A stretch of DNA of 64,000 nucleotides from Myxococcota bacterium. Lineage in GTDB: Bacteria > Myxococcota > JACRCW01. Under the pieces are notes generated by a model. The model was not told the DNA's origin and did no database searches. It was given only the letters and a program-made list of their open reading frames with translations. Shown one piece after another: positions 1,551 through 17,539 of this stretch (its first letter is position 1; every line of letters begins with the position of its first letter). The translations under genes and the position numbers were made by a program. The stretch covers positions 1-64,000 of the forward strand of contig JBFMGU010000002.1 of the NCBI GenBank assembly GCA_040752415.1, given 5' to 3'.

Positions 1551-1748
1551 GTTGAAGTCGCCCCCGGGGCGCGCCCACTGTTGGGCGGCGCCAGGCCGTC
1601 CCGAACCAATTGCCACCCGCCACACCCGGCAGATGGGCCCCATGAAATTTTGCGGCCCCTAGATACACCGCGCATTGCGTGCATGCCAACGACTGGTTTA
1701 TGTGAAAAGCGTTCGCGGTGATCGCAGAGCACATTCCGGGGGTTGTGT

Positions 1749-2510: not shown

Positions 2511-5500
2511 ACCCGCGTCCCTTCCTCCGCGTCGTGCCGTTGCTGCTGCTCGTCGTGGCGCCGGGCGTGGCCCGGGCTGCGCCGCTGGGGGTGACGGAGC
2601 TGGATGCGTTGGCCCGCCACCTGGACTGTCGCGACGCGTGCGGCGCCGGCCCGGCCCAGGACTACCAGGTGTGCGTGGATGCCTGCGGCGTCGTCGATCC
2701 GGCCTGGGAGAAGGACGGCGTGCCCGGTGTCACGCGTACCGACCAGTGGCTGGCCGCGCTGGAGGTCGCCGACGCCGGGCGCGGGGTGGAGATCTGCTAC
2801 CGGGCCGGCGGCACCGTGGTGGTGCCCGCGGCGTTGTGCCCCGGCGCGCTGTGCCAGGCGCTGCCCGCGTGCTCGGACGCGCAGTGCGCCCTGGATGAAC
2901 CGAGTCGACCCGCCGCCTGCCTGGACCCGGTGTGTGAGCTGCGCCCGGCCCGCACCGCCGCGGACTGCGCCGACGCCGACGCCGACGGCATTCCCGCCTG
3001 GCTGGAGCCCGCCGCGGGCGGCAACGACGGCGAGGCCAACACCTTCTGCCAGTCCAACCTGGACTGCGGCTTCTCCTCCACCTGCGCGTACGACGCCAAC
3101 CTGGGGGCCAGCCACTGCGCCCCGCGCGCGTGCGGGACGGCGGGGTGCACCGCCTTCCACCTGGAGCTGGTGGCCTCCGACGACCAGCAGGTGCTGATCC
3201 AGTTGGTCTACGACTACTCGCCCGGCCCGGCCCGCGTGCTGGACCTGCTCATCGACTACGACCGCACGTCGCTGGCGCTGGCGGAGTCCCGCCCCCTGCC
3301 CAACCTCACGGAGTACGGCAAGACCCTCCACGTCACCCACCTCTCCAACGGCGTGCTGCGCCTGGTGGTGATCTCCACGGATTCCGACGACCCCATCCGC
3401 GCCGGCCCGCTGGTGGAGCTGGTGTTCCAGCGCGTGGGCCCCGAGGGCAGCCGCGTCGGCTTCGTGAATGACGACGAAACCCAGGTCAACGCGGTGGCCC
3501 CGCTGCAGGGGAGCGAGGACACGCAGGAGCAGCTGGCGGACGACGCGTTGTGGGGCGCCCCGGTGGACGTCCCCGCGCGCGCCGACGACGCCGGCGAGCG
3601 GGTGCTGCTGTGGTACGGCTTTGACACCGCGGACGCGCCGCTGACGCTGGAGCAGGTTCCCGACGCCGAGGAGCTGTGCGGCCGCGTGGCCTCGTGCGCG
3701 CAGGAGCAGGACCCGGTGGCGCGGGGGCGCCACGTGGCGCGGCTGGACACGCTGCAGTCGGGCTTCATCTCCGTGAGCGCCAGCGTCCCGGGCGTGGCGC
3801 GCGGCGCGGTGGTGCTGGACGGGCACAACAACCACCTGCGCCTGCCGGTGCACGCCCTGGAGCCCTACGACCCCACCGGCCAGAGCTTCTCCTTCTCCAC
3901 CTGGTTCTACACGGAGGGCAACAGCAGCGACGAGGCCGTCACCACGCCGCAGGTGCTCTTCTCCCACCTGGCCGCCGACGAGCGGACCCACTTCGGCCTC
4001 CTCTTGGAGCCGGGCAGCGACGCAGACCACTGGACGCTCTCCTTCTTCCAGGGCGACCTGCTGGCGCTCTCCTCCCTGCAACGCACGCCCGTGGCGGTGG
4101 ACTTCCCCGTCCTCACCTGGCACCACGTGGCCTTCACGCTGGACGGGCACACCGGCGTGACCGCGCTCTACTGGGACGGCGCCGCGGTGGCGTCCACCAC
4201 CTTCCCGGCCTCCCCGCCCGCCATCTCCTGCCCGGGATTCCAGCGCGGCAGCGACGTGGTGCTGCACGAGGAGGGCGCCATCCTGGGCGGGCGGCCGCCG
4301 GAGGCCATCGTGCTCGGGGTGCGCGAGGGGCCGCAGTACCAGCTCCAGCGCATGGACCCCGAGGGGCTGGCCACCGCCACGGTGATCTCCAACCCGCAGG
4401 CCTCGTTCGAGGACCCGGACGTCATGCCGCTGATTGGCAAGGTGGCCTACGTCTCCAACCTCAGCGGCGCGTACGAGGTGTGGATCGCCGACCTCGACGG
4501 TGGGAACGCACAGCAGGTGACGGTGGGATTCGGCGAGGCCACGCTGGGCACCGGGGCGCACCGCCCGCGCTGGGCGCCCGACGGCAGCGCGCTGATCTTC
4601 GAGAGCAACGCCTTCAGCGTGCCGTTCGACCACAACGTGGACAAGGCGGTGCAGCTCTACTTCGTGGGCTACGACCCCATCCAGGGCAAGGTCCGCATCC
4701 CGCTGGATGCCGGCGGCACCGCCGAGCAGCTGGACTACAACGCGCACGCCCAGCAGCGCACGCTCTCCGCCTACCAGCTCACGCGCGGTGAGGAGAACCA
4801 CGGCAACGTGCACTGGCTGCGGGGCGCGGAGGGCGGCACGCGCGGGGACATCGTCTTCGACGTCACCGACGAGCGGTACAAGGGCGGCACGCTGCACCGC
4901 ATGCTCATCCCCCAGAACATCCGCGAGGCCAGCTCCTCCGTCATCCCGGGGCTGGGCCTGGCCTCCGAGGAGCTGAGGCTGCTGGGCGCCAAGCACGTGG
5001 TGCGCGCCGGGCCGCAGGGCGGGGAGTGGTCATACCTGCTCTACGCCGCGTGGCAGGTGGGCTACGAGACGTCCACCCAGTTCCAGGCGGAGGTGGTGGA
5101 GGCGGGGAGCACCGCCACCGTCACCGTGCGCCACGTGCCCAACGGCTACGACGCCAACTGCTGGGACCTCAACCACAACCACCTGCCTCCCGCGCGCGAC
5201 GGGCGCGACGCCGCCGAGGACGCCAACGGCGACGGCGCGTGGAACACCCAGGATTGCCACCCCGTGGCGGTGGACGACCTCTTCCTGGCCTTTGACCCCA
5301 CGCTGTTCGTCCCGCGGGTGAGCGCCGCCGACTCCGCCGCGGCCAGGCAGAACACCGTCCTGGCGCCCACGGGCGTGGACAAGGACCTGCGCCTGGGTGA
5401 GTCGTTCTCCGCCACCGGCGCGTACGTGCGCGTGGAGATCACCAGCCCGCGCAATGGCCTGCCCATCCCCGCCGGCGTGGTGGCGCGCATCAAGCTCGAC

Positions 5501-8500
5501 CGTCGCCAGCCCGGGGCGCCCACCACGCCCATGGAGATGAGGAAGCGGGGCGCCACCTCGCGCGTGCTGCTGCAGGACCTGCTCTCCGCGGGAGCGCCGC
5601 AGGCCGTGTCCCTGGGCGACGTCCTGGACGACGTGGAGGCGGCCGCCTTCTCTCCCGACGGCACGGGGCTGTTGCTGTACGGCAGGTCGCGGGCGCGGCC
5701 CGTGGTGGTGCGGACGCGCTCACTCACCGACGCCTCCCAGGGCGTGCGCATCCGCTCCGACGTCAAGAGCGTGCGCGGCCTGTCCTGGACACGGGAGCAG
5801 CGCTACTTCCCCTGCAACTGGGTGGGCGGCGTGATGCACCCCATCCAGAAGACCATCATGATGGGGCTGCGCGGCGCGCTGGATGAGCTCAAGCTCCACG
5901 CCGGCGTGCGCGACCCCGACGCCATCCTCTCCGAGTCCGCCCTGGGCCATGAGCGGCTGCAGGAGGAGGGGCGCGACGGCGCGCTGGACGGACAGCTGCA
6001 GGGATGCGTCCTCACCTCCGACTGCCCGGCGTTCCACCTGTGCGTGGCGGGCGCGTGTCGCATGGTGGAGTGCAGCCCGGAGGACCCCTACGCCTGCGCC
6101 GCCGAGGGTGGACGCTGCACGCTGCGGCCCATCTCCGTGGAGCAGGAGCAGGCCGGCGTCGACGGGTACCGCTGGGTGTGTGCCGCGGACTGCGAGGTGG
6201 ACAACCAGTGCTTCACCCAGTCCTGCGGCGCGGGGCCGTGCCGGTTCTGCGAGGTGGCCACCGCCGCGTGCGTGGAGTGTCGCGACAGCATCCAGGACTA
6301 CGGGGCGTTCACCATCCGCTCCATCGAGGGCTGCCCGGACCGCAACAGCTTCCAGTGCGCGGCCGGCGCGTGCGAGACGGAGTGCTACACCTTCCGCGAC
6401 GGGCAGAGCATCTACCGCTGCGACCCGGCGCTGGAGTTCTGCCAGGCGGGACGCTGCGCCACGTTGGAGTGGGACTGGCCGGACTTCGCGCCCGCCTCGC
6501 TGCTGGGCCTCACCGAGACCATCTACGAGGAGCTGCCCGACGCCGTGCGCACCGTGGCGGTGGGCGAGCAGAGCACCATCCGCTTCAAGGCCTACGGCAA
6601 GGGCGACCGCGCCCAGCCCCCGGAAGTGCTGGTGGAGGCCCGGGCCGCGGGCAGCAACGTGGCGCTCTACGGCGGCAACTGGTTCGAGGTGGGGCGCGTC
6701 ACGGTCCACAACCGCACCCGCAACGAGGCCGACGCCAACCCCTACCTGCTCCACGTCAGCCATCCCATCACCGACGTGCGCCTGCGGCTCGTCCACACGC
6801 CCTACCAGAACCTGGAAGCCGCGGCTTCCGGCCTGGGCGCGCGGGACAAGGACTTCTGCGTGGCCGACGCCAAGGTGACGGCGGAGACGGGCGGTGAGCC
6901 CCTGGACCAGAGCGCCTGCATCCACCGCCCGCCCGGCTCGATCCAGCACCTGGGTTACGCCGCGGAGGTCCCGTTTGACGACGTGGCCGCCGACTGCGCC
7001 GCGCACGCCCGTCCCGGCTGCCCCAACGTGCTGGACCCGCTGCGGGTCTACCTGGTCGACGGGCGTCCCACGGTGCTGGTGCTGGAGATGCGCGTGGACG
7101 GCACCGCGGTGCCGGTGGAGGCCAACCCGGTCTGCTCCTACGAGGGCACGCTGGACCCGGTGCAGCCGGGGGGCGCGCCGCGCAAGCTGTTCTACGGCGA
7201 CATCCGCCAGGAGAAGTCCCCCACCGCCGCGCGCTTCTGCCAGGACAACCCCACCGCCTGCGCCCAGGCCACGGACCTCCTGGACTTCAGCGCGCGCAGC
7301 GGCGGCGCCTACGCGCTGCTCAACTGCAACTACAACGACCCCGGCACCGGCGCCCTGGCGCGCGTGGACTACCTGGTGCCGCCCTACCAGCAACCGTTCA
7401 ACGCCGGCGCGGTGCGGGAGACGGGCGCGGGCTGCATGGTGGAGCTGGACGCGGTGCGCCGCGAGCAGTGTTACGAGTTCATGGGCGGGCAGGTCACCAT
7501 GGACCCCCTGGCGGCGCCGCTGGCGGTGTACCAGGTCCTGGAGTTCACGCAGCAGCGCAGCTTCGGCCATGACCGCAACTTCACGCCGGTGGAGCTGCCG
7601 CGCTTCCCGCTCACCGTGGCGGTCAGCGGCTACCAGGGCGGCGGCCTGCAGCTCCGCAACCGCGCCGACGTGCTCACCATCTCCGGCAGCGGGGAGGTCA
7701 CCGCCACCTTTGCCAACACGCTGCGGCTGGGGGAGCGCTGGCACGTCGAGGTGGAGCGGCAGCCCACGGGCGGCTCCGCCCCGCGCTACTGCGTGGTCGA
7801 CGCGCAGGAGGCGCGCGGCGCCATGCGCCAGGGCGGCGCCACCGTCCACGTGAGCTGCGGGCCGGCCCAGCGCGTGGGTGTGCAGCTCAGCGGCCTGGTG
7901 GCGGACCGCGCCGCGCTGCGCCTGCGCACCAACGCGTACGTGGCGGGCGCCAACACCCGGGCCGGGACCGTGGAGCTGGACCTGTGGGCCAATGGCACCT
8001 CCTCCTTCCCGGTGCTCCTCCCCGTCGGCGCCACCTACCTCGTGGAGGTGCGCGACCAGCCGCGCGTCCCCAGCCAGCTGTGCACCGTCAGCAACGGCAG
8101 CGGCGCGGTGCTCCCCGACCAGGCTCCCCTGGCCCGGGTGGTCTGCGTGGAGACGCCCCCGCGCCTGCTGGGCGGGCGGGTGGACGGGCTGGAGGGCCAG
8201 GGGCTCATCCTCTCCAGTGCCACCACCGACGAGCTGCTCACCATCTCCGCGGCCGGGCCCTACGCCTTCTCGCGCCGCATCCGCCCCGGCCTGCCCTACC
8301 AGGTGGCCATCCACCAGCAGCCCACCAACCCGGCCCAGCGGTGCGAGGTGGAGGGCGCCACCGGCGTGATGCCCAACCAGGATCACCTGGCGGTGCGCGT
8401 GGCCTGCGCCACCCTGCCCACCTACGCCATCAAGGTGAACGTGGGGAACCTGCGCGGCCGCGACCTGGTGCTCAGCCTCAACGGCTCGGACACCATGGCC

Positions 8501-9679
8501 CCCTCCCGCGACGGCGTGTACGCGTTCACCCGCCGCCTGCTGGACGGCGCCAGCTACGACGTCAAGGTCACCTCCCAGCCCCACACCCCGCTCCAGGACT
8601 GCACCGTCATCAGCGGCACCGGCACGGTCAACGCCGCCGACGTGCAGGACGTCCAGGTGGTCTGCGCCGACCACGTGGAGAACCCGGTGGCCTTCGCGGT
8701 GCACGTGGAGGTCTCGGGGTTGCTGGGCGACTTCATGCGTCTCTCACTCAACAACGGCACCCAGCGCATGGACGTGACCCGCAACGGGCGCTTCACCTTC
8801 AACAACCCGCTGTCCGACAACAGCAACTTCGTCGTGGAGGTGGCGGAGCAGCCCAGCTCTCCCGCGCAGACCTGCACCGTGGCGGCGGGGTCCGGACGGA
8901 TCACCGGCGCGGACGTGGTGGCGCAGGTCAGCTGTCCCTCGGCGCGCCTGAACGTGGCGCTGGGTGGCGGCGGCAGCGGGCAGGCGGTGCGTGGCGTGTT
9001 GCTCAATCCGGCCGGTGCGCCGGTGGGGGAGCAGCTGCCGGATGCCAGCTGGCCGTCGTCGGGCGCGACGCTCCGCGTGGTGGAGGCGGGACGCACCGCG
9101 GAGGGCAATCCTCCCAACGCGGCCCTCGCCACCGGCTCCCACCGGCTCTACCTGTGGGTGAACTCCGACGGCAGCAACAACGGCGGCGTCCCCACCTTCC
9201 AGCCCGGCGACGCCGCGGTGGTCAAGACGGTGAGCATCCCGGGCACCGCGCCGGTCACCGTCAACGTCAGCACCTCCGAGCTGGCCGCCACCATCCACGA
9301 GCCGGTGCTCATCAAGGCCCCGCCGGACATCGACGCCAAGGCCTCGGTGGTCTGCTACTGGACCGCCACCACCGGAGGCGCGGTGGAGCTGCCCGCGGTG
9401 GCACCGCTGGGAACCAGCGCGGTGGCCTGCTCCGACGAGCTGGCCCCCTGCTTCCGCTACCGCACGGGCGCGGGAGCGGTGGCCGGCAGCACCAACATCC
9501 ACGCGCCGCTCCTGGCGGGCACCTACGACCTGACGTGCTGGTACGACCAGGGCGGGCCGGGCGGCGCACCCGACAACATCTTCAACGCAGGAGACCGCGT
9601 GGGCTTCACGCCGGGCGTCAACGTCGACGGCCCCGGCGTGCTCACTTCCCAGGCGGTGGTCACGCTCAACCCGCCCTGA
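2507..9679 (+). CDS. Giant secreted multidomain protein (cohesin-like x2, LamG/ConA-like, TolB/PD40-like propeller, Cys-rich repeats, 5 Ig-like repeats)
   Basis: 2390-aa ORF with signal peptide ending VARA. LamG motifs SFSFSTWF, WHHVAFT, LYWDG, GALDELKL; PD40-like VAYVSN..EVWIADLDG, PRWAPDGSALIFES, FSPDG; five ~85-aa repeats SGL.G..L.L...QP..P.Q.C.V..G.G...V.C at ~7600-8940. Confidence 0.85.
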   Translation: MNPRPFLRVVPLLLLVVAPGVARAAPLGVTELDALARHLDCRDACGAGPAQDYQVCVDACGVVDPAWEKDGVPGVTRTDQWLAALEVADAGRGVEICYRAGGTVVVPAALCPGALCQALPACSDAQCALDEPSRPAACLDPVCELRPARTAADCADADADGIPAWLEPAAGGNDGEANTFCQSNLDCGFSSTCAYDANLGASHCAPRACGTAGCTAFHLELVASDDQQVLIQLVYDYSPGPARVLDLLIDYDRTSLALAESRPLPNLTEYGKTLHVTHLSNGVLRLVVISTDSDDPIRAGPLVELVFQRVGPEGSRVGFVNDDETQVNAVAPLQGSEDTQEQLADDALWGAPVDVPARADDAGERVLLWYGFDTADAPLTLEQVPDAEELCGRVASCAQEQDPVARGRHVARLDTLQSGFISVSASVPGVARGAVVLDGHNNHLRLPVHALEPYDPTGQSFSFSTWFYTEGNSSDEAVTTPQVLFSHLAADERTHFGLLLEPGSDADHWTLSFFQGDLLALSSLQRTPVAVDFPVLTWHHVAFTLDGHTGVTALYWDGAAVASTTFPASPPAISCPGFQRGSDVVLHEEGAILGGRPPEAIVLGVREGPQYQLQRMDPEGLATATVISNPQASFEDPDVMPLIGKVAYVSNLSGAYEVWIADLDGGNAQQVTVGFGEATLGTGAHRPRWAPDGSALIFESNAFSVPFDHNVDKAVQLYFVGYDPIQGKVRIPLDAGGTAEQLDYNAHAQQRTLSAYQLTRGEENHGNVHWLRGAEGGTRGDIVFDVTDERYKGGTLHRMLIPQNIREASSSVIPGLGLASEELRLLGAKHVVRAGPQGGEWSYLLYAAWQVGYETSTQFQAEVVEAGSTATVTVRHVPNGYDANCWDLNHNHLPPARDGRDAAEDANGDGAWNTQDCHPVAVDDLFLAFDPTLFVPRVSAADSAAARQNTVLAPTGVDKDLRLGESFSATGAYVRVEITSPRNGLPIPAGVVARIKLDRRQPGAPTTPMEMRKRGATSRVLLQDLLSAGAPQAVSLGDVLDDVEAAAFSPDGTGLLLYGRSRARPVVVRTRSLTDASQGVRIRSDVKSVRGLSWTREQRYFPCNWVGGVMHPIQKTIMMGLRGALDELKLHAGVRDPDAILSESALGHERLQEEGRDGALDGQLQGCVLTSDCPAFHLCVAGACRMVECSPEDPYACAAEGGRCTLRPISVEQEQAGVDGYRWVCAADCEVDNQCFTQSCGAGPCRFCEVATAACVECRDSIQDYGAFTIRSIEGCPDRNSFQCAAGACETECYTFRDGQSIYRCDPALEFCQAGRCATLEWDWPDFAPASLLGLTETIYEELPDAVRTVAVGEQSTIRFKAYGKGDRAQPPEVLVEARAAGSNVALYGGNWFEVGRVTVHNRTRNEADANPYLLHVSHPITDVRLRLVHTPYQNLEAAASGLGARDKDFCVADAKVTAETGGEPLDQSACIHRPPGSIQHLGYAAEVPFDDVAADCAAHARPGCPNVLDPLRVYLVDGRPTVLVLEMRVDGTAVPVEANPVCSYEGTLDPVQPGGAPRKLFYGDIRQEKSPTAARFCQDNPTACAQATDLLDFSARSGGAYALLNCNYNDPGTGALARVDYLVPPYQQPFNAGAVRETGAGCMVELDAVRREQCYEFMGGQVTMDPLAAPLAVYQVLEFTQQRSFGHDRNFTPVELPRFPLTVAVSGYQGGGLQLRNRADVLTISGSGEVTATFANTLRLGERWHVEVERQPTGGSAPRYCVVDAQEARGAMRQGGATVHVSCGPAQRVGVQLSGLVADRAALRLRTNAYVAGANTRAGTVELDLWANGTSSFPVLLPVGATYLVEVRDQPRVPSQLCTVSNGSGAVLPDQAPLARVVCVETPPRLLGGRVDGLEGQGLILSSATTDELLTISAAGPYAFSRRIRPGLPYQVAIHQQPTNPAQRCEVEGATGVMPNQDHLAVRVACATLPTYAIKVNVGNLRGRDLVLSLNGSDTMAPSRDGVYAFTRRLLDGASYDVKVTSQPHTPLQDCTVISGTGTVNAADVQDVQVVCADHVENPVAFAVHVEVSGLLGDFMRLSLNNGTQRMDVTRNGRFTFNNPLSDNSNFVVEVAEQPSSPAQTCTVAAGSGRITGADVVAQVSCPSARLNVALGGGGSGQAVRGVLLNPAGAPVGEQLPDASWPSSGATLRVVEAGRTAEGNPPNAALATGSHRLYLWVNSDGSNNGGVPTFQPGDAAVVKTVSIPGTAPVTVNVSTSELAATIHEPVLIKAPPDIDAKASVVCYWTATTGGAVELPAVAPLGTSAVACSDELAPCFRYRTGAGAVAGSTNIHAPLLAGTYDLTCWYDQGGPGGAPDNIFNAGDRVGFTPGVNVDGPGVLTSQAVVTLNPP

Positions 9680-9714
9680 CGGCGGCACTCGCAGTCCTTT
9701 GTGGAGGTCAAGCC

Positions 9715-11733
9715 ATGTGCAGGTCCTTTGGCCAATGGGTGGGTGGCGCGGCGGCGCTGCTGCTGCTCGGGCAGCCGGTGACGGCCCGCGCCGAGCCGGA
9801 AGCGTGCGGCGGCACGGCCAACTTCCCCTGCGCCTTCCAGCTCCGGGAGGTCTCGCTGCAGCCAGTGCCCAACGTCTTCAAGTTCCAGGCGCGGGTCAGC
9901 CAGGCCAAGCTCCCCGTGGGGGAGGGCGTGTTCAACCGCGTCATCGTCAACCTCAACCGCGGGGATGAGACGCTGTGTCGCGAGGAGTTCCGCGACGTGC
10001 GGGTGGTGGACAGCACCATCAACGTCGAGATTGGCCGCAACATGAGCTGTGAGATGGACCAGGTCATTGCGGAGAACCATGACCTGTTCTTCCAGGTGTG
10101 CCTGGGCGGTGAGGACAACTGCCTGCGACCGGTCTCCCTCGGCAGCTCCCCCTACGCGGTCAAGAGCACGTTCGCGTCGCAGGCGCAGGAGGCCCACCAG
10201 TCCGACGTGGCCGGCCAGGCCCACTACGCCCACCGCGTCACCGCCGACCGCGACCTCTTCCTCACCAAGGAGCTCGGGACCGGGTACTTTGACTTCTTCA
10301 CGCCCGCCGAGGCGCCGCTGCTCTACACGCCCGCGGACTTCGAGCAGTACCGCAACGGCGGCTTCCTGCAGTGGACGCCCATGGATGAGCAGGAGCCCAC
10401 CCTGCACATCGTGGGCAAGGACCACCAGACCGACCAGGTCGTTCCGCTCGGCCGCCTGGTGCTGGGCGCCGACAACACCGACACCACCGGCCGCCTCACC
10501 GTGCGCTCGGGCGGCATGCAGGTCAACGGCTCCAGCTCCCTCACGGGCAACACCACGGTGCGCGGGCAGCTCAAGGTGGACCGCCCCGCGGGCACCGGGC
10601 CCCAGGGCCTGCAGGTGACCGGCAACTCCGCGGTCAACGGCACGCTGACGGTGAGCGAGGCCATCGCCGTGAACCCCGGCGGGATCGACGTCACCGGCGC
10701 CAGCAACTTCACCGGCCAGGTCACGGCGCAGGAGATCACCGTCAACTCCCTGCGCGTGCTGGGGGAGTTCGCGGTGCCCGGGGAGATCACGCTGGGAGGT
10801 GTCTCCGGCGACTTCTCCGTGGCCAATGACCTGGCGGTGGGCAACAGCATGCTGGTGGTGGGCCCCATTGCGGTGGGCGAGGGCCTGGCGCTCAACAGCG
10901 GCGTCAACGGCGACGGCGGCACCGCGCTGGTCCATGACCCCGGCGACACGCTGACCATCAACCCCGGCAGCGTCTTCTCCGGCGGCACGCTCATCGACAG
11001 CAACCTCAACCTCAACGGCACCCTCAGCGCCTCCAGCCGGGTCAACGCCCGCGACCTCCGGCTGGGCTACGGCATCAACGGCAGCGACCACGCCAACGCG
11101 GGCCTCCTGGAGTACCGCCCCTCCTTCCAGAACGACGCGCTGACCATCACCGGCGCGGGGACCAGCACCACCAACCGCAAGGTCAAGCTCTACGACGACG
11201 TGGTGGTGGACGAGAGCCTCACCGTGGGCGAGGAGCTGCGCGCGGGCAACTACGCCTCCACCCCCGCCGTCTACCTGGGCCTCGGCGGCTACAACACCAC
11301 CCGCAACCTGGGCTTTGCGCTCAACGCCGGCGACCACACCTTCGCCGGCCACATCGCGTACCGTCCGTCGGACTTCCCGGGCTACCTCACCATTGCCGGC
11401 GCCGGAACCAGCACCACCAACCGTGCCATCTACCTGCTGGACGACGTCACCGTGGACGAGGACCTGGCGGTGGGCGGCAACGTCTCGGTGTCGGGGAACG
11501 TCACGGTGGGCGGCAGCTCGGTGTGTCGCGCCAACGGCACCAACTGCCCCGGCGCGGCGTGGCCGGCGGGCAGCTACTGCATCCTGCAGCGCGGTGGCTC
11601 CTGCCCCGCCGGGTTCAGCTCGGGCTTCCGCTACTGGGACGACGAGGACAACAACAACGCCAACTCCCATGGCGGCGTGGTGCCGGACGGCTCCTACGGC
11701 GGAAACACGCGGCTCAACTTCTGTTGCAAGTGA
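9715..11733 (+). CDS. Secreted trimeric fibre/adhesin-like protein with C-terminal ApeC (apextrin)-like module
   Basis: RBS GGAGGT at 9703, ATG at 9715 (in frame with track ORF 7984..11733), signal peptide. N-terminal FQAR...E....V.....VEIG...L.SSPYA fibre-base motif; Gly/Val/Thr beta-repeat shaft; C-terminus WPAGSYCILQRGGSCPAGFSSGFRYWDDEDNNN...PDGSYGGNTRLNFCCK. Confidence 0.8.
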   Translation: MCRSFGQWVGGAAALLLLGQPVTARAEPEACGGTANFPCAFQLREVSLQPVPNVFKFQARVSQAKLPVGEGVFNRVIVNLNRGDETLCREEFRDVRVVDSTINVEIGRNMSCEMDQVIAENHDLFFQVCLGGEDNCLRPVSLGSSPYAVKSTFASQAQEAHQSDVAGQAHYAHRVTADRDLFLTKELGTGYFDFFTPAEAPLLYTPADFEQYRNGGFLQWTPMDEQEPTLHIVGKDHQTDQVVPLGRLVLGADNTDTTGRLTVRSGGMQVNGSSSLTGNTTVRGQLKVDRPAGTGPQGLQVTGNSAVNGTLTVSEAIAVNPGGIDVTGASNFTGQVTAQEITVNSLRVLGEFAVPGEITLGGVSGDFSVANDLAVGNSMLVVGPIAVGEGLALNSGVNGDGGTALVHDPGDTLTINPGSVFSGGTLIDSNLNLNGTLSASSRVNARDLRLGYGINGSDHANAGLLEYRPSFQNDALTITGAGTSTTNRKVKLYDDVVVDESLTVGEELRAGNYASTPAVYLGLGGYNTTRNLGFALNAGDHTFAGHIAYRPSDFPGYLTIAGAGTSTTNRAIYLLDDVTVDEDLAVGGNVSVSGNVTVGGSSVCRANGTNCPGAAWPAGSYCILQRGGSCPAGFSSGFRYWDDEDNNNANSHGGVVPDGSYGGNTRLNFCCK

Positions 11734-11786: not shown

Positions 11787-12323
11787 ATGGAGCGCGTGGT
11801 GGGAAGATGGTGTCGAGCGCTGAGCGTGACGGTGGTGACGGCGTGCGCGGTGGCGCCGTCGGGAAACGGCTCCGGGTCGGTTGACGCCCCGCGGCCCGCC
11901 ACCAGCGAGGCCACCCCCGGCACCGTGGCGGCTCCCGCCAACCCGCCCGCCCGTGTCGAGGTGGCGCCCCGCGCCCGGACCTTTGCGCTGCTCCTCAACC
12001 TCCCACCCACCACCGTGCCGCCGCGCATGGTGGAAGCGTGGCTGGAGGTGGAGGAGGGATGGCGCATGACGTCGTCACAGGCGGGCCGGGTGGCGCAGGA
12101 GGCGGACAAGTCGGTGCGTGTGCAGGAGCGCAACGGCCGGCTGCGGGTGGTGGTGCTGTCGTCGGGGAATCTCAACACGCTGGCCAACGGGCCGCTGGCG
12201 CTGCTGGCGCTGGAAGGGGACGGCGGGTCCGCGGTGCCGCTGCGCGTGCACCCGCGCTCCAACCTGGCGCCCGGCGGCGCGGTGCGCCCGGGTGAGCTGG
12301 CGGTGGAGGAGGTCTCGCCATGA
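11787..12323 (+). CDS. Small lipoprotein with cohesin-like domain
   Basis: RBS GGAGG at 11778; MERVVGRWCRALSVTVVTAC (lipobox-like); Pro-rich linker; PRMVEAWLEV..AGRVAQEADKSV..RLRVVVLSSGNLNTLANGPLALLAL parallels the domains in 1749..2510 and 2507..9679. Confidence 0.7.
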   Translation: MERVVGRWCRALSVTVVTACAVAPSGNGSGSVDAPRPATSEATPGTVAAPANPPARVEVAPRARTFALLLNLPPTTVPPRMVEAWLEVEEGWRMTSSQAGRVAQEADKSVRVQERNGRLRVVVLSSGNLNTLANGPLALLALEGDGGSAVPLRVHPRSNLAPGGAVRPGELAVEEVSP

Positions 12324-15300
12324 TGCGCAGCCTTGCGGTGGGAGCGCTGTGGCTGGTGGCCGCGCTGGCCCAGGCGCAGGTGACCAGCGTCCCCAACCTG
12401 TGCGACGACGCCGGCGGCCTGGGCTCCAGCTGCTTCACCGACGACGACTGTGCCTTCCGCCCCTACGCCACGCGGTGCGTCGAGCACGTCCAGGGCGACC
12501 CGGCCAGCCGTCGCTGCGAGGCCCCGTGCGAGGCCGACGAGGCCCACCCCGGCACCCCCGACCACGCGGCGTGCGCCCTGGGGGAGACCTGCCTGGCCTC
12601 TCTGGGGGACGGCACCTTCTACTGCGCGCCCACCCGCTTCCGCATGGACCTCAACCTCGTGGACCAGTGCGTGGCGCACTTCCTGGCCGGCACCGGTCCC
12701 ACGCTGGGCAGCAACAACGCCTGCTCGCTGGAGGCCAACCTCAACCAGATGCTGGACCAGGACGGGGATGGAGAGTTCGACATCTTCGACGTGGACGGCT
12801 GCGTGCAGGCCTTCCTGCATGAGCCCGCGTGCAACCCGGACACCGGCACGTGTCCCACCGTGGACATGGTCTACTGCAACGCCGACGAGGATTGCGGCGC
12901 CGGCCTGTTCTGCGACGAGGAGCGCCACTTCTGCACGCGCGAGTGCGGCGTGGTGGCCAGCCGGGAGCCGGGCCTGGGCGCCCTGGAGCGCGCGTGCGCC
13001 GGACGCCTCAAGACCTGTGATCACGCGCAGGGGCGCTGCGTGGACGCCAACCTGGAGCAATACCGCTGCAGCGTGGACCGGGAGTGCCCGGTGGGCGCGT
13101 ATTGCCTGGTGGGTCGGTGCGCCGCGCGGTGCTCGCGTGCTTTGGATTGCCCGGACTCCGGCTGGTACTGCGCGCCCAACAACACCTGCCGCGTGCTGCC
13201 TTCCCCCGAGGAGAACGCGGGCAACAGCTTTGACCCGCGCAACTACGCGGTGCTCTTCGGCACCAACCAGGCCACGTTGACGCCGCTGGAGAACCACACC
13301 GAGGTGCCGCTGCTCATCATGGACCTCACCACCAAGCGGGAGGTGCTGGACAATCCCTCGGTGGGCTTCGGGTACCGGCTGGAGGTCACCTACGCGTTCA
13401 AGCAGGACCCGCGCTGCTTCCGCAGCCCGGATGAGTGGACCCTGGAGGACCGCGAGGAGTGCCTCATCGAGCCGGCCGAGGAGTTCGTGCAGCTCGCCAG
13501 CCCCTTCGGGACGGTGTTCGCGGTGGGGCGGCCCAAGGTGGCCTTCACGCTCAACCCCGCCGCCGCCGAGCGCCTCTCCCCCGGCAAGTACGTGGCCACG
13601 GTCAACGCCATCTTCGACAACGGCAACCAGGACACCGTGCAGGTGCGCTTCAACAAGACCACCGCCTCCGGCGAGTACGTGGGCTCGCTCTCGGTGGTGC
13701 TGGGCGCACCGGAGAACCAGCTCAACGCCGGCACGCTGCTGGACCTGGCCATCAAGATGGACATCAAGGAGGACCAGCTGGTGCGCTGGAACGAGCTGCT
13801 GGCCGCGGAGAACCTGGCCGCCACCTCCCAGGACTACACGGACATCACCCAGGGCCAGCTCATCCACGCCCACCTGCACGGCAATGACGCCGTGGCCTTT
13901 GCGCTGCCGGGCGCGGAGAGCCCCGCCGACAACGAGATCCCGCTCAAGGGCATCTACTCGCCGCAGCTGGGCATCATGCGGCTGGTGGGCGTGGTGGAGA
14001 TTCCCGCGGACTTCTGCCTGGGCGAGGAGGGCGCGTGCGCGGACGCCAGCGGGCTGCAGGTGCGCAACCTGTTTGGCCGCACCATCCGCCGCATCCTGTT
14101 CTTCAACGGCACCTACGACGACGTGGGACGGCGCTTCCTGGGCAACTACCGGGAGCGCGTCTCCGGGCTGTCACCGGGAGGAGAGCTGACGCTGGAGGGT
14201 GGGTTCGTGCTCAGCCAGACCTCCGCCGACGAGACCGGCCTGCAGCTCAGCGCGCCCCTGCTCCCGTCCGGCGCGTCACTGGTGGACTTCCCGCACCTCC
14301 CGGAGGTCCTCGCCGGCATCGACGCCGACGTCGCCACCTGGTGCCAGGGCAGCGAGGCCGCGGCCGCGGTGGGCAGGTTCACCTCCGCGTCCAGCTACCT
14401 CGCGTACCTGGGCTCGGAGGACTTCCCCATCTTCCCCGACGTGGTGGAGTTCAAGCAGCTCATCCAGGACGGCATCGACAACCTCCAGGATGACGACTCG
14501 CGCGCCCAGGACGTGTTGACCCTGCACGAGTACCTGGCGGGGCGGATCGTCCTGTGCGGCGAGGAGGAGGCGGCGGCGGGGGCGCCGTTGTCGTCGTCGG
14601 CGCCGGCGTGCGTGGATGAGGCCAGGCTGCGCTGCGCGCTCTCGCTCTACCGCAGGGCGGTGGTGGGCGGCCTGGCCGGCACACGCTACCTGGGCAACCC
14701 GGGCGCCAACCCCTACCCGCTCTTCTGCTCCAGCACGCTCCCGGCGGAAGGGTGCCATCCCTCGCCCACGGAGCTGCCCTTCGTGGCCACCCTGTTGGAG
14801 CACAACCGCTTCCACCAGGAGCTGGCGCAGGCCACCAAGTTCCAGGCTGACCAGGACCTCTCCGACGCGTTCTTTGCCCTCTACCGCAACCGGCTCAACC
14901 CCTTCACGCAAGGGGCGGCGCTCAACTTCAAGGCCGACAAGCTGGAGCGCGCCAACCGCCGCTACGACGACCTCACCGCGCTGGTGCTGGAGCCCGCCGC
15001 GGCCTCGGTGCTGTTTGACTGGCGCATGTGGGCCTTCGAGGCGCGCGGGCAGGAGTGGCTGCGCCAGATGCACGTCATGGCCGCGGACCGCATGGACGCG
15101 CTGGCGGAGCTGGTGGACCTGCGACGCCGCATCTACGCCCGCGACGGCGAGCGGCAGCAGCTCCTGGGCGAGCACCTGGCGCAGATGGAATACCTGCAGC
15201 AGGTCTACCTCATGGCCCTGCAGCGCGAGTGGCAGGGTGAGGACTTCAAGTACGGCGGGGAGGCCGGCCTCATCCTGGAGCGCCTCAAGGTCATCCTCAA

Positions 15301-17539
15301 GCAGCTGCACCAGACCCGCAATGCGCTGGGCGTGGTGCCGGAGCAGGTGTTCTTCGAGAACAGCGACCCCTCGCTGGTGAACTGGCGCTCCTACCTGCGC
15401 ATCCTCGCCGGTGACGACGGGACGGGCGGCCTGCTGGCGGAGGCGCAGTCCCAGATCGACAGCGCGGTGGCCAACCTGCAGGCCTCGTTGGCCGACGTGG
15501 ACGCGCTGGAGGACCGCATCTTCGAGCTGAACAACGAGTACGAGGGGGCGCTCATCGAGCTGTGCGGCGACGAGGAAGCCTCCGCGCCCTGCAACGCGCT
15601 GTGGCAGAAGGTGGCCGCCTGGGAGCAGAACGGGACGTCGCGGGCGGACATCCTCAGCCAGATGGAGGCGTTCATCCAGAACCGCTGCGGCAGCAGCGAC
15701 CCCCTCGCCGTGCTCCTCGGAGCCGCGCCCGCCTCGGCTTCCTCGGAGGAGTGCGAGTGGGTCAAGAGCGAGTTCGTCAGCGAGTACAACGCCCAGGGGC
15801 CCGCCTGCCCCCTCAGCGCGGCCAAGCACAACATCATGGTCCGCGGAGAGCGGCGCGCGTGCATTGGCGGCGCCATGGGCGGCCTGCTGCTGGAGAAGGA
15901 GGGACTGCTGCGCGAGCGGGAGGGCATCCGCCGCGACATGATGACGCTGCTCAAGCGCCTGGAGGAGTTCGCCGAGACGCGGGATTACGTGGAGGGGATC
16001 CACATCGGCCAGCGGCTGAGCCTCATCCTGGTGCGGATCATCGAGCTGGTGCTCACCTTCGTGGACAAGGCCAACAAGACCGCCTCCGAGGTCGCCGACG
16101 AGGTGGCGGAGAGCGCCAACTGCATGCTCATTGCCGGCCTGGCCGCGGGCACGGACTGTCCGCAGAGCTTTGCGTCGGGCGCCAGCAAGGTCTCCGTGAC
16201 GGTCGCGCGCACCGTGGGGGAGCGCGTGGTGGAGACGCTCAAGGAGCAGGCGGTCAACCTCTTCGAGATCGCCAACATGGAGTTCGACTTCGCCATCGAG
16301 GACCGCGAGGCGCAGCGCGAGATGACCGAGATGTCCTACGAGAGCTACGCGCTGGTCACCGCCTACATCGCCAACATCCAGGCCTCGCTGGCGGTGGAGG
16401 CGGGCATGGCGGAGACGCGCTTCCTGGCCAAGGACGCCGCCGCCGGGCTCAACGACTCCCTGAGCCTGCTGCTGGACCACCTCGTGGGGCGGGAGAGCGG
16501 CAGCGTGCTGGTGGGCAACTTCCTGGTGCGGGAGAGCTCCGCCACCTTCCGTCGCGCCCTGCAGGTGGCCTACCGCATGGTGCTGGCGTTTGCGCATCGC
16601 TACAACCTCAGCGTCGCGGAGCGGAACCAGCTCATTGCGCAGGTGATGCAGGCGGTCACCGTCGAGGACCTGCAGGCACTGGTGCAGCTGCTCATCGAGC
16701 GGGAGCGCGGCTACTGCGGCCGGGAAGCCATTGATTGCGACGCGTTCAACAACCTCAACGTGCTGCGCCTGAGCCTGCGCGACCTGCTCTTCCCGCAGCT
16801 CCGCGACCTGGTGGACCCCGCCACGGGGCGCGTGGTCACCCGGGGTGAGCAGTTCCACAACATCATCACCTCCCCGCCGTTCCTGCGTCGCCGGGTGCGC
16901 GGGGCGTGGGCCGTGGACCAGGTGGAGCTGCCCTTCACGGTGCTGCTGCAACAGCGCGACCCCGGCGACACGCGCGGCTGGCTGCTCAACCCCACCCAGT
17001 GCAACCACATCCTGGACGGCGACCCCACGGCCGGCGCGCTGGAGGCCGGCACGGTGGCGGTGAACGTGGTGGGACAACGACTGGGCCCGGCGGAACGCGC
17101 CATCACCTACGAGCTCGGTCGCGGCCACGTGGACCAGATCCGCGCGTGCCACGCCGAGTCCGTGCAGACGCAGATCGGTTCGCTCCCGGAGCTGGACTAC
17201 CCCATCCGCACGCAGGTGGTGGGTTACTCGTCGGAGAGCGCGCAGGGCCAGCAGACGCAGCCACCCACCTACTTCGTGCGCTCCGGCGAGCTGAACGCGT
17301 GCCTCAACCAGGCGGAGTCCGCCGGGCGGCTGGACGGTGGCTCGTGCTGGCACTTCTTCGGCCGGGATCGCAGCCTCGCCTCGCCGGACTACACGCTCTA
17401 CATCCCGCTGGCGATTGACGGCGAGAACACCAGCAACTCGTGGATCACCGGCGCGGGCCTGCCCGAGTCGCAGCGTCCCGTCATCGAGGACGTGGTGCTC
17501 TACCTCCGCTACCGCACCCGTCCCATCTCGGAACCGTGA
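12320..17539 (+). CDS. Large secreted protein with Cys-rich N-terminus, dockerin-like Ca loop and TcA-like coiled-coil/hydrophobic hairpin (putative pore-former)
   Basis: 1739-aa ORF, signal peptide ending AQA; DQDGDGEFDIFD loop; long helical heptad regions flanking LSLILVRIIELVLTF..CMLIAGLAAGTDC; C-terminal FRRALQVAYR...SLRDLL...DVVLYLRY; ATGA overlap with upstream gene. Confidence 0.75.
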   Translation: MMRSLAVGALWLVAALAQAQVTSVPNLCDDAGGLGSSCFTDDDCAFRPYATRCVEHVQGDPASRRCEAPCEADEAHPGTPDHAACALGETCLASLGDGTFYCAPTRFRMDLNLVDQCVAHFLAGTGPTLGSNNACSLEANLNQMLDQDGDGEFDIFDVDGCVQAFLHEPACNPDTGTCPTVDMVYCNADEDCGAGLFCDEERHFCTRECGVVASREPGLGALERACAGRLKTCDHAQGRCVDANLEQYRCSVDRECPVGAYCLVGRCAARCSRALDCPDSGWYCAPNNTCRVLPSPEENAGNSFDPRNYAVLFGTNQATLTPLENHTEVPLLIMDLTTKREVLDNPSVGFGYRLEVTYAFKQDPRCFRSPDEWTLEDREECLIEPAEEFVQLASPFGTVFAVGRPKVAFTLNPAAAERLSPGKYVATVNAIFDNGNQDTVQVRFNKTTASGEYVGSLSVVLGAPENQLNAGTLLDLAIKMDIKEDQLVRWNELLAAENLAATSQDYTDITQGQLIHAHLHGNDAVAFALPGAESPADNEIPLKGIYSPQLGIMRLVGVVEIPADFCLGEEGACADASGLQVRNLFGRTIRRILFFNGTYDDVGRRFLGNYRERVSGLSPGGELTLEGGFVLSQTSADETGLQLSAPLLPSGASLVDFPHLPEVLAGIDADVATWCQGSEAAAAVGRFTSASSYLAYLGSEDFPIFPDVVEFKQLIQDGIDNLQDDDSRAQDVLTLHEYLAGRIVLCGEEEAAAGAPLSSSAPACVDEARLRCALSLYRRAVVGGLAGTRYLGNPGANPYPLFCSSTLPAEGCHPSPTELPFVATLLEHNRFHQELAQATKFQADQDLSDAFFALYRNRLNPFTQGAALNFKADKLERANRRYDDLTALVLEPAAASVLFDWRMWAFEARGQEWLRQMHVMAADRMDALAELVDLRRRIYARDGERQQLLGEHLAQMEYLQQVYLMALQREWQGEDFKYGGEAGLILERLKVILKQLHQTRNALGVVPEQVFFENSDPSLVNWRSYLRILAGDDGTGGLLAEAQSQIDSAVANLQASLADVDALEDRIFELNNEYEGALIELCGDEEASAPCNALWQKVAAWEQNGTSRADILSQMEAFIQNRCGSSDPLAVLLGAAPASASSEECEWVKSEFVSEYNAQGPACPLSAAKHNIMVRGERRACIGGAMGGLLLEKEGLLREREGIRRDMMTLLKRLEEFAETRDYVEGIHIGQRLSLILVRIIELVLTFVDKANKTASEVADEVAESANCMLIAGLAAGTDCPQSFASGASKVSVTVARTVGERVVETLKEQAVNLFEIANMEFDFAIEDREAQREMTEMSYESYALVTAYIANIQASLAVEAGMAETRFLAKDAAAGLNDSLSLLLDHLVGRESGSVLVGNFLVRESSATFRRALQVAYRMVLAFAHRYNLSVAERNQLIAQVMQAVTVEDLQALVQLLIERERGYCGREAIDCDAFNNLNVLRLSLRDLLFPQLRDLVDPATGRVVTRGEQFHNIITSPPFLRRRVRGAWAVDQVELPFTVLLQQRDPGDTRGWLLNPTQCNHILDGDPTAGALEAGTVAVNVVGQRLGPAERAITYELGRGHVDQIRACHAESVQTQIGSLPELDYPIRTQVVGYSSESAQGQQTQPPTYFVRSGELNACLNQAESAGRLDGGSCWHFFGRDRSLASPDYTLYIPLAIDGENTSNSWITGAGLPESQRPVIEDVVLYLRYRTRPISEP

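What the first reader, a model, noticed from the sequence alone, without database searches (positions are those of the whole stretch)
11560..11730. ApeC (apextrin C-terminal)-like module at the tip of a bacterial fibre
Seen: the last 57 aa are WPAGSYCILQRGGSCPAGFSSGFRYWDDEDNNNANSHGGVVPDGSYGGNTRLNFCCK. Known: this closely follows the WPxGxYCI..CPxGF..G...WDDED..N....G.LPDG.Y..NT...CC pattern of invertebrate ApeC domains, whose DxED motif is conserved and which in amphioxus bind peptidoglycan. Only one subunit-sized copy is present. Inference: fibre trimerisation may assemble the full binding domain, giving a cell-wall sensor, and may point to the evolutionary origin of, or horizontal transfer of, animal ApeC.
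Basis: partly seen in the sequence, partly recalled or inferred. Interest (0 to 1): 0.8.

Follow-up and report, generated by a model that had tools for sequence, protein, structure and literature searches.

The report
Single ApeC repeat tipping bacterial fibre
A secreted fibre protein of an uncultured myxobacterium ends in one copy of the 57-residue unit that invertebrate animals carry three times in a row as their bacteria-binding ApeC domain, so three fibre chains probably rebuild that domain as a sticky knob at the fibre's tip.

Summary
Window 11560-11730 encodes exactly the quoted 57 residues, the C-terminus of a 672-aa secreted protein (9715-11733, +). It matches Pfam ApeC at E 6.9e-19, but only profile positions 73-133 of 208.

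The animal ApeC domain proves to be three homologous units of about 60 aa. This tip is one unit of the middle type, with four cysteines and one DDED motif.

The carrier belongs to a family of 68 homologues, named only as Myxococcota or Deltaproteobacteria MAG proteins. They share an N-terminal domain and proximal stalk but have swapped tips, including phage tail-collar, S74 chaperone, SRCR, C-type lectin and dermatopontin. This resembles the MAT fibres of Bdellovibrio.

The gene lies in a cassette of giant secreted proteins that is syntenic at 6 loci in 4 genomes.

Other single-unit tips sit on unrelated scaffolds, one of them a collagen triple helix.

The idea that trimerisation rebuilds an ApeC-like knob is therefore well supported, but only indirectly: the complex predictor was unavailable. 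Ligand and direction of evolution remain open. Bacterial ApeC-like domains are already in print, but I found no description of a one-unit fibre tip. An earlier scan note (e1-1370152) described another myxobacterial fibre with an animal-type tip, not ApeC.

Verdict: a new variant of a known kind; interest 0.6.

The parts
9703..9707 (+). GGAGG ribosome-binding site 8 nt before the start codon
   Evidence: sequence printed
9715..9792 (+). signal-peptide-like N-terminus (residues 1-26, hydrophobic core, ...TARA before EPE)
   Evidence: read from the translation; no signal-peptide program was run
9793..10584 (+). N-terminal domain conserved across the fibre family (residues 27-290; six conserved Cys at 31, 39, 88, 112, 129, 136)
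   Evidence: alignments A1 and A5; 68 homologues; model pLDDT 79, pTM 0.46; no Foldseek PDB match at E<=0.001
10585..11520 (+). Gly/Thr/Val-rich fibre stalk (residues 291-602); homology to the closest relatives ends inside it
   Evidence: closest homologues cover only 60-63% of the query
11101..11229 (+). stalk repeat copy 1 (GLLEYRPS ... DESLTVG)
   Evidence: the same motif precedes the tip in P0005 and P0109
11347..11475 (+). stalk repeat copy 2 (GHIAYRPS ... DEDLAVG)
11521..11547 (+). neck with two Cys (C604, C611; C-x6-C); similar Cys pairs precede the module in P0109 and P0144
11560..11730 (+). single ApeC unit of the middle (R2) type: 57 aa, Cys at 622, 630, 670, 671
11635..11664 (+). 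WDDEDNNNAN acidic motif (the one DXED motif of the unit)
   Evidence: D30, D31, D33, N36, N38 invariant in 8 of 8 single modules
1743..2510 (+). cassette gene g1, small Cys-rich lipoprotein-like protein (255 aa)
   Evidence: no Pfam family
2507..9679 (+). cassette gene g2, 2390-aa secreted giant protein with Laminin_G_3
11787..12323 (+). cassette gene g4, small lipoprotein-like protein (178 aa) whose stop overlaps the g5 start
12320..17539 (+). cassette gene g5, 1739-aa protein with no Pfam family
17440..24066 (+). cassette gene g6, 2208-aa repetitive giant protein with a weak Fibrinogen_C piece

Best explanation
The gene encodes a secreted, modular surface fibre of an uncultured Myxococcota bacterium. 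It has a signal peptide, a family-conserved N-terminal domain that presumably anchors it, a Gly/Thr/Val-rich stalk, a short two-cysteine neck and a 57-residue tip. The tip is one unit of the ApeC domain, of the middle (R2) type with four cysteines and one DDED..N.N motif.

Animal ApeC is three such units in tandem on one chain (shown here). I infer that the fibre is a homotrimer, so three tips pack into a knob equivalent to one animal ApeC domain, with three identical acidic motifs. I further infer that the knob binds a carbohydrate or cell-wall ligand on another cell or on matrix.

The tip is one of many interchangeable tips in this fibre family, as in the MAT adhesin fibres of Bdellovibrio. 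The fibre works within a conserved cassette of giant secreted proteins.

Shown: identity of the module, its one-unit extent, the three-unit build of ApeC, tip swapping, and synteny. Inferred: trimer, knob geometry, ligand.
For: Module and extent:
- Pfam ApeC at E 6.9e-19, profile positions 73-133 of 208.
- 8 of 8 other single-module proteins tested map to profile 68-134.

Three-unit build of ApeC:
- A phmmer re-scan with the last 62 aa of the 150 best hits of the 70-aa tip search found 125 of 150 matched in two or more stretches: 84 in two, 39 in three, 1 in four, 1 in six, 25 in one.
- hhalign probabilities between unit profiles were S-R1 99.6, S-R2 100, S-R3 99.3, R1-R2 99.4, R1-R3 96.8 and R2-R3 99.5%.
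- The AlphaFold model of a 206-aa ApeC domain has pLDDT 94.1, pTM 0.90 and 12 strands, four per unit.
- Cysteines run 2+4+2 across the units.

Trimer, indirect:
- Among 68 homologues sharing the N-terminus and stalk, four end in Peptidase_S74.
- P0003 ends in a phage tail-collar fibre domain (PHROG 1800, E 1.5e-21) and P0011 in tail-fibre tips.
- P0177 is a collagen triple helix (E 3.9e-10) followed by one ApeC unit.

Terminal position and tip swapping:
- 11 of 256 scanned proteins, making 9 clusters, carry a single unit ending within 6 residues of the C-terminus.
- A second, unrelated scaffold (P0222) also swaps ApeC, dermatopontin and S74 tips.

Context:
- Order g1, g2, fibre(s), g5 is syntenic at 6 loci in 4 genomes (g1 was not matched at the G112 locus); g6-like sequence was matched at three of the five other loci, once on the opposite side.

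Ligand lead:
- Amphioxus and mollusc ApeC domains bind peptidoglycan (PMC8361754 abstract; PMC9585378 abstract).
Against:
- I could not inspect model coordinates, so the claim that the three units of ApeC surround a pseudo-threefold axis rests on repeat homology and strand pattern alone.
- The unit profiles compared were collected with the single-module HMM, which favours their similarity.
- The protein itself has no PHROG hit and no significant solved relative.
- Its stalk beyond about residue 440 differs from that of the S74- and collar-tipped homologues, so their trimeric nature is transferred by family membership only.
- Animal ApeC ligand data are for three non-identical units. The role of the DXED motifs is stated to be unknown (PMC8361754, results passage).
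- Nothing shows that the organism is predatory or that the protein is expressed.
Confidence: 0.6

Rival explanations
1. The tip is an independent disulfide-stapled cap on each chain, or on a fibre that is not trimeric. It stabilises or terminates the stalk, and its likeness to ApeC reflects a shared small fold, not a shared three-unit assembly or ligand.
For: The unit has four Cys of its own plus two in the neck. Many unrelated tips of the family also end in a Cys-Cys pair. In Bdellovibrio MAT fibres the non-S74 caps 'fold independently' (PMC10769870, Discussion). A Paceibacterota protein (L002) keeps the Cys frame but lacks the DDED motif.
Against: The acidic motif and 23 of 57 positions are invariant across 8 single modules on unrelated scaffolds, which is more than a structural cap needs. 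One of these scaffolds is collagen, an obligate trimer. The same unit occurs in threes in every full ApeC domain.
Confidence: 0.2
2. The knob is chiefly a metal-binding (for example Ca2+) stabiliser or assembly aid for the fibre end. The acidic D-D-E-D..N.N loops coordinate ions on or near the threefold axis rather than binding a foreign ligand.
For: The invariant Asp/Asn-rich motif. Ions lie on the threefold axis of the Bd2133 MAT tip (PMC10769870, figure 5 legend passage).
Against: No metal-site prediction was made. Animal ApeC domains bind peptidoglycan and agglutinate microbes (PMC8361754 and PMC9585378 abstracts). Metal binding and lectin activity are not exclusive.
Confidence: 0.12
3. 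The tip is a recently captured fragment of an animal ApeC gene, or an assembly chimera, with no settled function in the bacterium.
For: The module is up to 71% identical to the R2 unit of a sea-urchin MACPF-ApeC protein (P0297), closer than to the ApeC-like domains of its own phylum (24-48 bits). FastTree scatters the single modules among animal R2 units.
Against: GC3 of the tip is 0.93, like the rest of the gene. The tip is in frame on a 70% GC contig. Nine clusters of single-unit tips exist on different bacterial-type scaffolds. The AU test does not reject all single modules forming one clade (p 0.85) or all animal units forming one clade (p 0.83), and those constrained trees had higher likelihood than the free quick tree.
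Confidence: 0.05

Closest known systems
Animal ApeC domain (Pfam PF16977; amphioxus ACP1/2/3/5, mollusc CgACP1/BgACP1, apextrins)
   Same: Clear sequence homology (E 6.9e-19). The tip shares the WP.G.YCI..CP.GF...WDDED..N.N...LPDG.Y..NT...CC signature of the middle unit and is 55-71% identical to animal R2 units. It is extracellular, like ApeC.
   Different: It has one unit of 57 aa with 4 Cys and 1 DXED motif. Animal ApeC has about 200 aa, 8 Cys and 3 DXED motifs (PMC8361754 introduction passage). It sits at the end of a bacterial fibre, not behind MACPF, CUB or similar domains. If the knob forms, it is a true homotrimer of identical units, not three diverged units on one chain.
Bacterial 'ApeC-like' domains (Li et al., Mol Phylogenet Evol, as cited in PMC8361754; paper not seen)
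   Same: A bacterial relative of ApeC with four cysteines.
   Different: [quoted passage not shown] The ApeC-like domains I found in 23 of 172 genomes of one Myxococcota family are full three-unit domains. One covers Pfam profile 2-191 of 208 at 27.1 bits. They have 2+2+0 Cys and are fused to subtilase or metalloprotease parts. The window's tip is a different form: one unit, with all four Cys in it.
MAT (mosaic adhesive trimer) fibres of Bdellovibrio bacteriovorus (Caulton et al. 2024, PMC10769870)
   Same: A secreted fibre with an invariant N-terminal domain that has no solved structural relative, an extended beta-rich stalk, and swapped C-terminal tips. There are S74 and non-S74 subgroups, including lectin-type tips, and several paralogues per genome (paper abstract, passages and Discussion).
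   Different: Homology of the N-terminal domain to Bdellovibrio MATs was not tested because no MAT sequence was at hand. The family profile found no MAT chain in the PDB at E<=1. This family sits in a fixed cassette with giant secreted proteins, which the parts of the MAT paper I read do not describe. ApeC is not mentioned in that paper's main text (0 occurrences), and its supplementary tables 3 and 4 could not be read.
Phage tail fibres and receptor-binding proteins
   Same: Homologues end in tail-collar and S74-chaperone tips found on phage fibres. The logic is a trimeric stalk with an exchangeable receptor-binding tip.
   Different: This protein has no PHROG hit. No phage structural genes lie in the window. 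The tip found no match in 50,697 phage records, and only noise in IMG/VR.

Membership tests
ApeC domain (Pfam PF16977) | Match to the family HMM above the curated gathering score | tested here: met
   68.9 bits against a cut-off of 26.5, E 6.9e-19
ApeC domain (Pfam PF16977) | Full domain of about 200 aa with three DXED motifs | tested here: not met
   Only profile positions 73-133 of 208 are matched. There is one matching stretch and one DDED motif.
ApeC domain (Pfam PF16977) | Eight conserved cysteines | tested here: not met
   Four Cys in the module (622, 630, 670, 671) plus two in the neck. Animal units carry 2+4+2.
ApeC domain (Pfam PF16977) | Binds peptidoglycan and agglutinates microbes | not testable with these tools
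   Known only for amphioxus and mollusc proteins (PMC8361754 and PMC9585378 abstracts)
Bacterial ApeC-like domain as described in print | Four of the eight cysteines; occurs as a single-domain protein | tested here: inconclusive
   The Cys number fits, but the module is the tip of a 672-aa multidomain fibre. The defining paper (Li et al., Mol Phylogenet Evol) is not held, so I know it only from two sentences in PMC8361754.
MAT fibre superfamily (Bdellovibrio) | Conserved N-terminal domain with diversified C-terminal tips | tested here: met
   Alignments A1 and A5; differing tip families across 68 homologues
MAT fibre superfamily (Bdellovibrio) | S74 and non-S74 subgroups | tested here: met
   PF13884 in 4 of 68 homologues; tail-fibre PHROGs on P0011
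MAT fibre superfamily (Bdellovibrio) | Intertwined homotrimeric stalk | not testable with these tools
MAT fibre superfamily (Bdellovibrio) | Sequence or fold homology to the Bdellovibrio MAT N-terminal domain | not tested
   No MAT sequence was available. The family profile found no MAT chain in the PDB at E<=1, but the PDB holds only C-terminal MAT fragments according to the paper.
Phage tail fibre | Match to phage fibre families, or a place in a phage or tailocin gene cluster | tested here: not met
   0 PHROGs for P0002. Neighbouring genes are giant secreted proteins, peptidases and a TonB receptor.

The most novel reading that the evidence does not exclude
Animal ApeC, and by the same pattern dermatopontin, descend from the tip module of bacterial trimeric fibres. 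In this reading a unit that works as a homotrimeric knob in bacteria was captured by early animals and triplicated in tandem, turning a three-chain knob into a one-chain pseudo-trimer that animals then used against bacteria.

The window's tip has the shortest branch and the basal place among non-Myxococcaceae units when the tree is rooted on the Myxococcaceae domains. Dermatopontin tips on the same kinds of fibres also cover only the middle third of their Pfam profile (positions 43-98 of 152 in 5 of 5 tested).
Probability: 0.3. Interest if true: 0.8.

Novelty: new variant of a known kind. Interest (0 to 1): 0.6.

Why it matters
ApeC is an invertebrate pattern-recognition domain with no solved structure. 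I found no relative by sequence in the PDB and none by fold. The role of its DXED motifs is stated to be unknown (PMC8361754).

Reading ApeC as three copies of a 57-residue unit, with a natural one-unit form on trimeric scaffolds, offers a minimal symmetric construct for structure and ligand work. It also gives a concrete, testable route for the domain's origin: a homotrimer turned into a tandem triplication.

For microbiology, it adds an animal-type lectin module to the repertoire of swappable tips on bacterial surface fibres. It also points to an uncharacterised, conserved cassette of giant secreted proteins in uncultured Myxococcota in which such fibres operate.

Tried and rejected
1. Trimer modelling. 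Complex prediction with three copies of residues 540-672 (alignment A4) met a full queue three times and was then declared unavailable. There is no result either way.

2. Are the other tips of the fibre family distant relatives of the ApeC unit, given the shared C...CP.G...CC look? hhalign of the single-module alignment against five tip groups gave probabilities of 0.1-2.9%. Rejected.

3. Fold relatives of ApeC.
- Foldseek against the PDB: best E 7.5e-2, TM 0.10.
- VIA-align against 48,161 chains: none with Z>=2. That is unusually empty, and the tool warns it proves nothing.
- BFVD: best E 6.6e-2.
- PDB by sequence profile: nothing below E 0.069.

4. Fold relatives of the N-terminal domain: only generic beta-sandwiches, best E 1.4e-2.

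5. PDB sequence searches with the protein and the family profile. The best rows were a hexapeptide-repeat acetyltransferase (E 0.36) and the T4 short tail fibre (E 0.094). Neither is significant.

6. ApeC tips in phages: none in 50,697 phage records. The two IMG/VR loci were noise when scored with the module HMM, at 6.1 bits or less.

7. Direction of transfer. FastTree, IQ-TREE and AU tests on 57 columns could not decide it.

8. ESM Atlas look-ups for the fibre and for g5 gave only scores of 0.85 or less and TM of 0.33 or less. These are leads, not evidence.

The single-protein scan of genome contigs gave 3 weak loci.

10. A Pfam scan of all 68 homologues exceeded the size limit. I used the precomputed Pfam column instead.

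11. Papers. The PNAS 2014 ApeC paper is not held, and Li et al. (Mol Phylogenet Evol) was not seen. No held paper contains both 'ApeC domain' and 'AlphaFold', or both 'apextrin' and 'Myxococc'.
Full report
THE OBSERVATION

They form the C-terminus of a 672-aa ORF. It begins at the ATG at 9715, with GGAGG 8 nt upstream and a signal-peptide-like start. The longer stop-to-stop frame from 7984 merely overlaps the end of the upstream gene.

GC by codon position is 0.64/0.48/0.95 for the gene and 0.53/0.56/0.93 for the tip, in a window of 70.5% GC. The tip therefore uses the host's codon style and is not a chimera or a fresh import.

Pfam ApeC (PF16977) matches residues 614-672 at E 6.9e-19 and 68.9 bits, against a curated cut-off of 26.5. 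Only profile positions 73-133 of 208 are covered. NCBIfam has nothing. The module profile finds one place in the 11.0-Mb, 96.8%-complete assembly, and that is this one. Both the observation and 'only one subunit-sized copy' are confirmed.

WHAT APEC IS MADE OF

A search of 1.84 billion representative proteins with the last 70 aa gave 818 hits at E<=1e-3 and 293 at E<=1e-10. I re-scanned the 150 best with phmmer using the last 62 aa. The tip matched 84 of them in two stretches, 39 in three, 1 in four, 1 in six and 25 in one. The strongest match is always the middle stretch.

Read directly, the proteins show three units:
- R1, with 2 Cys;
- R2, with 4 Cys and the WP.G.YCI..CP.GF...WDDED..N.N...LPDG.Y..NT...CC signature;
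- R3, with 2 Cys.

Each unit has an acidic D.ED motif. This accounts for the '8 cysteines and three DXED motifs' of the literature (PMC8361754, introduction passage).

Profiles of the units match each other by hhalign at 96.8-99.5% probability. One caveat applies: the units were gathered with the single-module HMM.

An AlphaFold model of a 206-aa ApeC domain (P0088, aligned with 37 relatives) reached pLDDT 94.1 and pTM 0.90. It shows 12 strands, four per unit, in the same short-long-short-long order. I could not see coordinates, so a pseudo-threefold arrangement is inferred, not shown.

The model has no detectable relative in any library tried:
- PDB by Foldseek: best E 7.5e-2.
- 48,161 PDB representatives by VIA-align: none with Z>=2.
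- BFVD: best E 6.6e-2.
- PDB by sequence profile: nothing below E 0.069.

I found no held paper containing both 'ApeC domain' and 'AlphaFold'.

ONE-UNIT TIPS ELSEWHERE

I scanned 256 proteins. Eleven of them, forming nine clusters, have a single unit that ends within 6 residues of the C-terminus. All come from unnamed metagenome sources. All 8 tested map to Pfam profile positions 68-134.

Their scaffolds differ:
- P0109/P0221 share the window's stalk motif and Cys neck.
- P0144 has a coiled-coil and a membrane segment.
- P0147 and P0222/P0311 have acidic repeats.
- P0177 has a collagen triple-helix region (Pfam Collagen, E 3.9e-10) directly before the unit.

Across 8 single modules, 23 of 57 positions are invariant, including the four Cys and D-D-.-D-..-N-.-N. 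Every organism-named hit of the module profile is an animal: cnidarians, molluscs, echinoderms, amphioxus, a hemichordate and sponges. Most are 44-70% identical to the query, with extremes of 29% and 73%.

THE CARRIER PROTEIN

A search with the whole protein gave 69 proteins including itself. The few that carry names are 'Myxococcota bacterium' or 'Deltaproteobacteria bacterium' MAG proteins.

They share the signal peptide, an N-terminal domain of about 260 aa with six conserved cysteines, and the first part of the stalk. After that they diverge completely.

The precomputed Pfam families of the tips are:
- Peptidase_S74 in 4;
- TSP_3 with SRCR in 2;
- TSP_3 with PF11617 in 1;
- bactofilin in 2;
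- dermatopontin in 1;
- DUF4215 in 2, one of them also with C-type lectin and FGE-sulfatase;
- ApeC only in the query.

P0003 ends in a phage tail-collar fibre domain (PHROG 1800, E 1.5e-21). P0011 ends in tail-fibre tips (E 1.9e-12). The window's protein has no PHROG hit.

The N-terminal domain model (pLDDT 79, pTM 0.46) has no significant PDB match. The family profile's best PDB rows are the T4 short tail fibre (E 0.094) and a putative tail fibre (E 0.63). Neither is significant.

This design is that of the MAT fibres of Bdellovibrio (PMC10769870; abstract, passages and Discussion read). The lead to that paper came from earlier scan note e1-1370152. I could not test homology to MAT proteins themselves.

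GENOMIC CONTEXT

The fibre is not in a prophage. No phage structural family appears among the neighbours. It is the third gene of a co-directional run:
- g1 (255 aa, Cys-rich, lipoprotein-like);
- g2 (2390 aa, Laminin_G_3);
- the fibre;
- g4 (178 aa, lipoprotein-like);
- g5 (1739 aa, no family);
- g6 (2208 aa, weak Fibrinogen_C).

The same genome holds a second copy of the run on another contig. Its fibre is 66% identical in the N-terminal domain but has a different tip.

With the N-terminal domain as query, 4 of 401 sampled genomes of the phylum have the fibre, and 0 of 172 in family f11. The order g1, g2, fibre(s), g5 is kept at all six loci, except that g1 was not matched at the G112 locus. 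One genome has three fibres in tandem. g6-like sequence was matched at three of the five other loci, once on the opposite side of the cassette.

APEC-LIKE DOMAINS IN THE SAME PHYLUM

The module profile matches 24 of 401 sampled genomes. The other 23 all belong to family f11 (23 of 172) and score weakly, at 23.6-48.5 bits.

These are full three-unit domains with 2+2+0 cysteines. They are fused to subtilases, metalloprotease-like parts and other regions. Of four tested with Pfam:
- L010 reaches ApeC at 27.1 bits over profile positions 2-191 of 208;
- L023 reaches 29.1 bits;
- L009 falls below the cut-off at 22.4 bits;
- L005 has no match.

They fit the 'bacterial ApeC-like domain with only four cysteines' of the literature better than the window's tip does. 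They are not single-domain proteins.

A PARALLEL CASE

The scaffold of P0222 has 57 homologues at E<=1e-5. By precomputed Pfam, 10 end in dermatopontin, 2 in S74 and 1 in ApeC.

In 5 of 5 dermatopontin tips tested, including P0033 of the window's own fibre family, only profile positions 43-98 of 152 are matched. That is again about the middle third of an animal domain.

EVOLUTION

On 57 columns the tree is weak.
- FastTree scatters the single units among animal R2 units.
- IQ-TREE rooted on the Myxococcaceae units puts the window's tip, with a very short branch, at the base of all other units, at SH-aLRT 80.
- AU tests do not reject all nine single units as one clade (p 0.85) or all animal units as one clade (p 0.83). 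Those constrained trees had higher likelihood than the free quick search.

Direction of transfer is therefore open. Recent import from an animal is unlikely given the tip's GC3 of 0.93.

MECHANISM AND VERDICT

Shown:
- a genuine one-unit ApeC module at the C-terminus of a secreted, tip-swapping fibre;
- ApeC as three homologous units;
- one-unit tips on other scaffolds, including collagen;
- a conserved giant-protein cassette around the fibre.

Inferred:
- the fibre is a homotrimer;
- the three tips form an ApeC-like knob;
- the knob binds a glycan or cell-wall ligand, by analogy with peptidoglycan binding by amphioxus and mollusc ApeC (PMC8361754 and PMC9585378 abstracts).

It lacks a direct test because the complex predictor was unavailable.

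Bacterial ApeC-like domains and a prokaryotic origin are already in print. A one-unit ApeC tip on a trimer-type fibre, and the reading of ApeC as a triplicated unit, I did not find. Li et al. (Mol Phylogenet Evol) and the MAT paper's supplementary tables were not readable.

I class the finding as a new variant of a known kind.

Noticed in passing
window 1743-24066 (+); also L026 (own genome, second contig), L031, L032, L033, L034: A cassette of a small Cys-rich lipoprotein-like gene, a giant protein of about 2400 aa with LamG, one to three fibres, a small lipoprotein-like gene and a protein of about 1740 aa without any family keeps its order at 6 loci in 4 Myxococcota genomes (the first small gene was not matched at L034). 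It occurs twice in this genome; a repetitive giant like the window's sixth gene was matched at three of the five other loci, once on the opposite side. Its function is unknown.
   Followed up: partly
P0033 (this fibre family); P0326, P0328, P0330, P0337 (P0222 scaffold): Dermatopontin (PF14704) tips on bacterial fibres cover only profile positions 43-98 of 152 in 5 of 5 tested. This is the same 'middle third of an animal domain' pattern as the ApeC tip. From recall only, dermatopontin is described as internally repetitive; I did not check this.
   Followed up: partly
window 3-1643 (-): An ORF cut by the window edge encodes collagen triple-helix repeats (E 2.4e-26) and six DUF7151 stretches (E 7.2e-82). 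It is another animal-style matrix element beside the cassette.
   Followed up: no
window 17440-24066 (+), residues 1541-1580: A short piece of Fibrinogen_C (E 2.3e-7, 31.3 bits) lies inside the 2208-aa repetitive giant protein.
   Followed up: no
window 40209-42098 (+): A full-length Peptidase_M2 (angiotensin-converting-enzyme family) homologue, E 3.9e-103. The window is also rich in other peptidases: S8 with PPC, M1, M16 and S51.
   Followed up: no
L002:3434-4189 (+), a Candidatus Paceibacterota MAG: A 252-aa protein with Tyr-rich stalk repeats ends in a module that keeps the first half of the ApeC unit's signature and the terminal Cys-Cys-Lys. It replaces the DDED loop with an unrelated Cys-rich loop (Pfam ApeC only 20.3 bits, below cut-off).
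   Followed up: partly
L009:1-1887 (+), a genome of Myxococcota family f11: A weak Thiol_cytolysin match (E 0.0022, below cut-off) lies directly before a three-unit ApeC-like domain. If real, this pore-former plus ApeC layout would echo animal apextrins (MACPF plus ApeC).
   Followed up: no
P0003-P0070, C-terminal ends: Many otherwise unrelated tips of the fibre family end with a Cys-Cys pair a few residues before the C-terminus. hhalign found no homology to the ApeC unit (at most 2.9%), so the shared feature is unexplained.
   Followed up: partly
model me5a97772669c (ApeC domain of P0088): VIA-align found 0 of 48,161 PDB chains with Z>=2 for a confident 206-residue all-beta model. The tool's own note says a typical best Z is 7 to 8. 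This means either an unusual fold or a technical failure.
   Followed up: no
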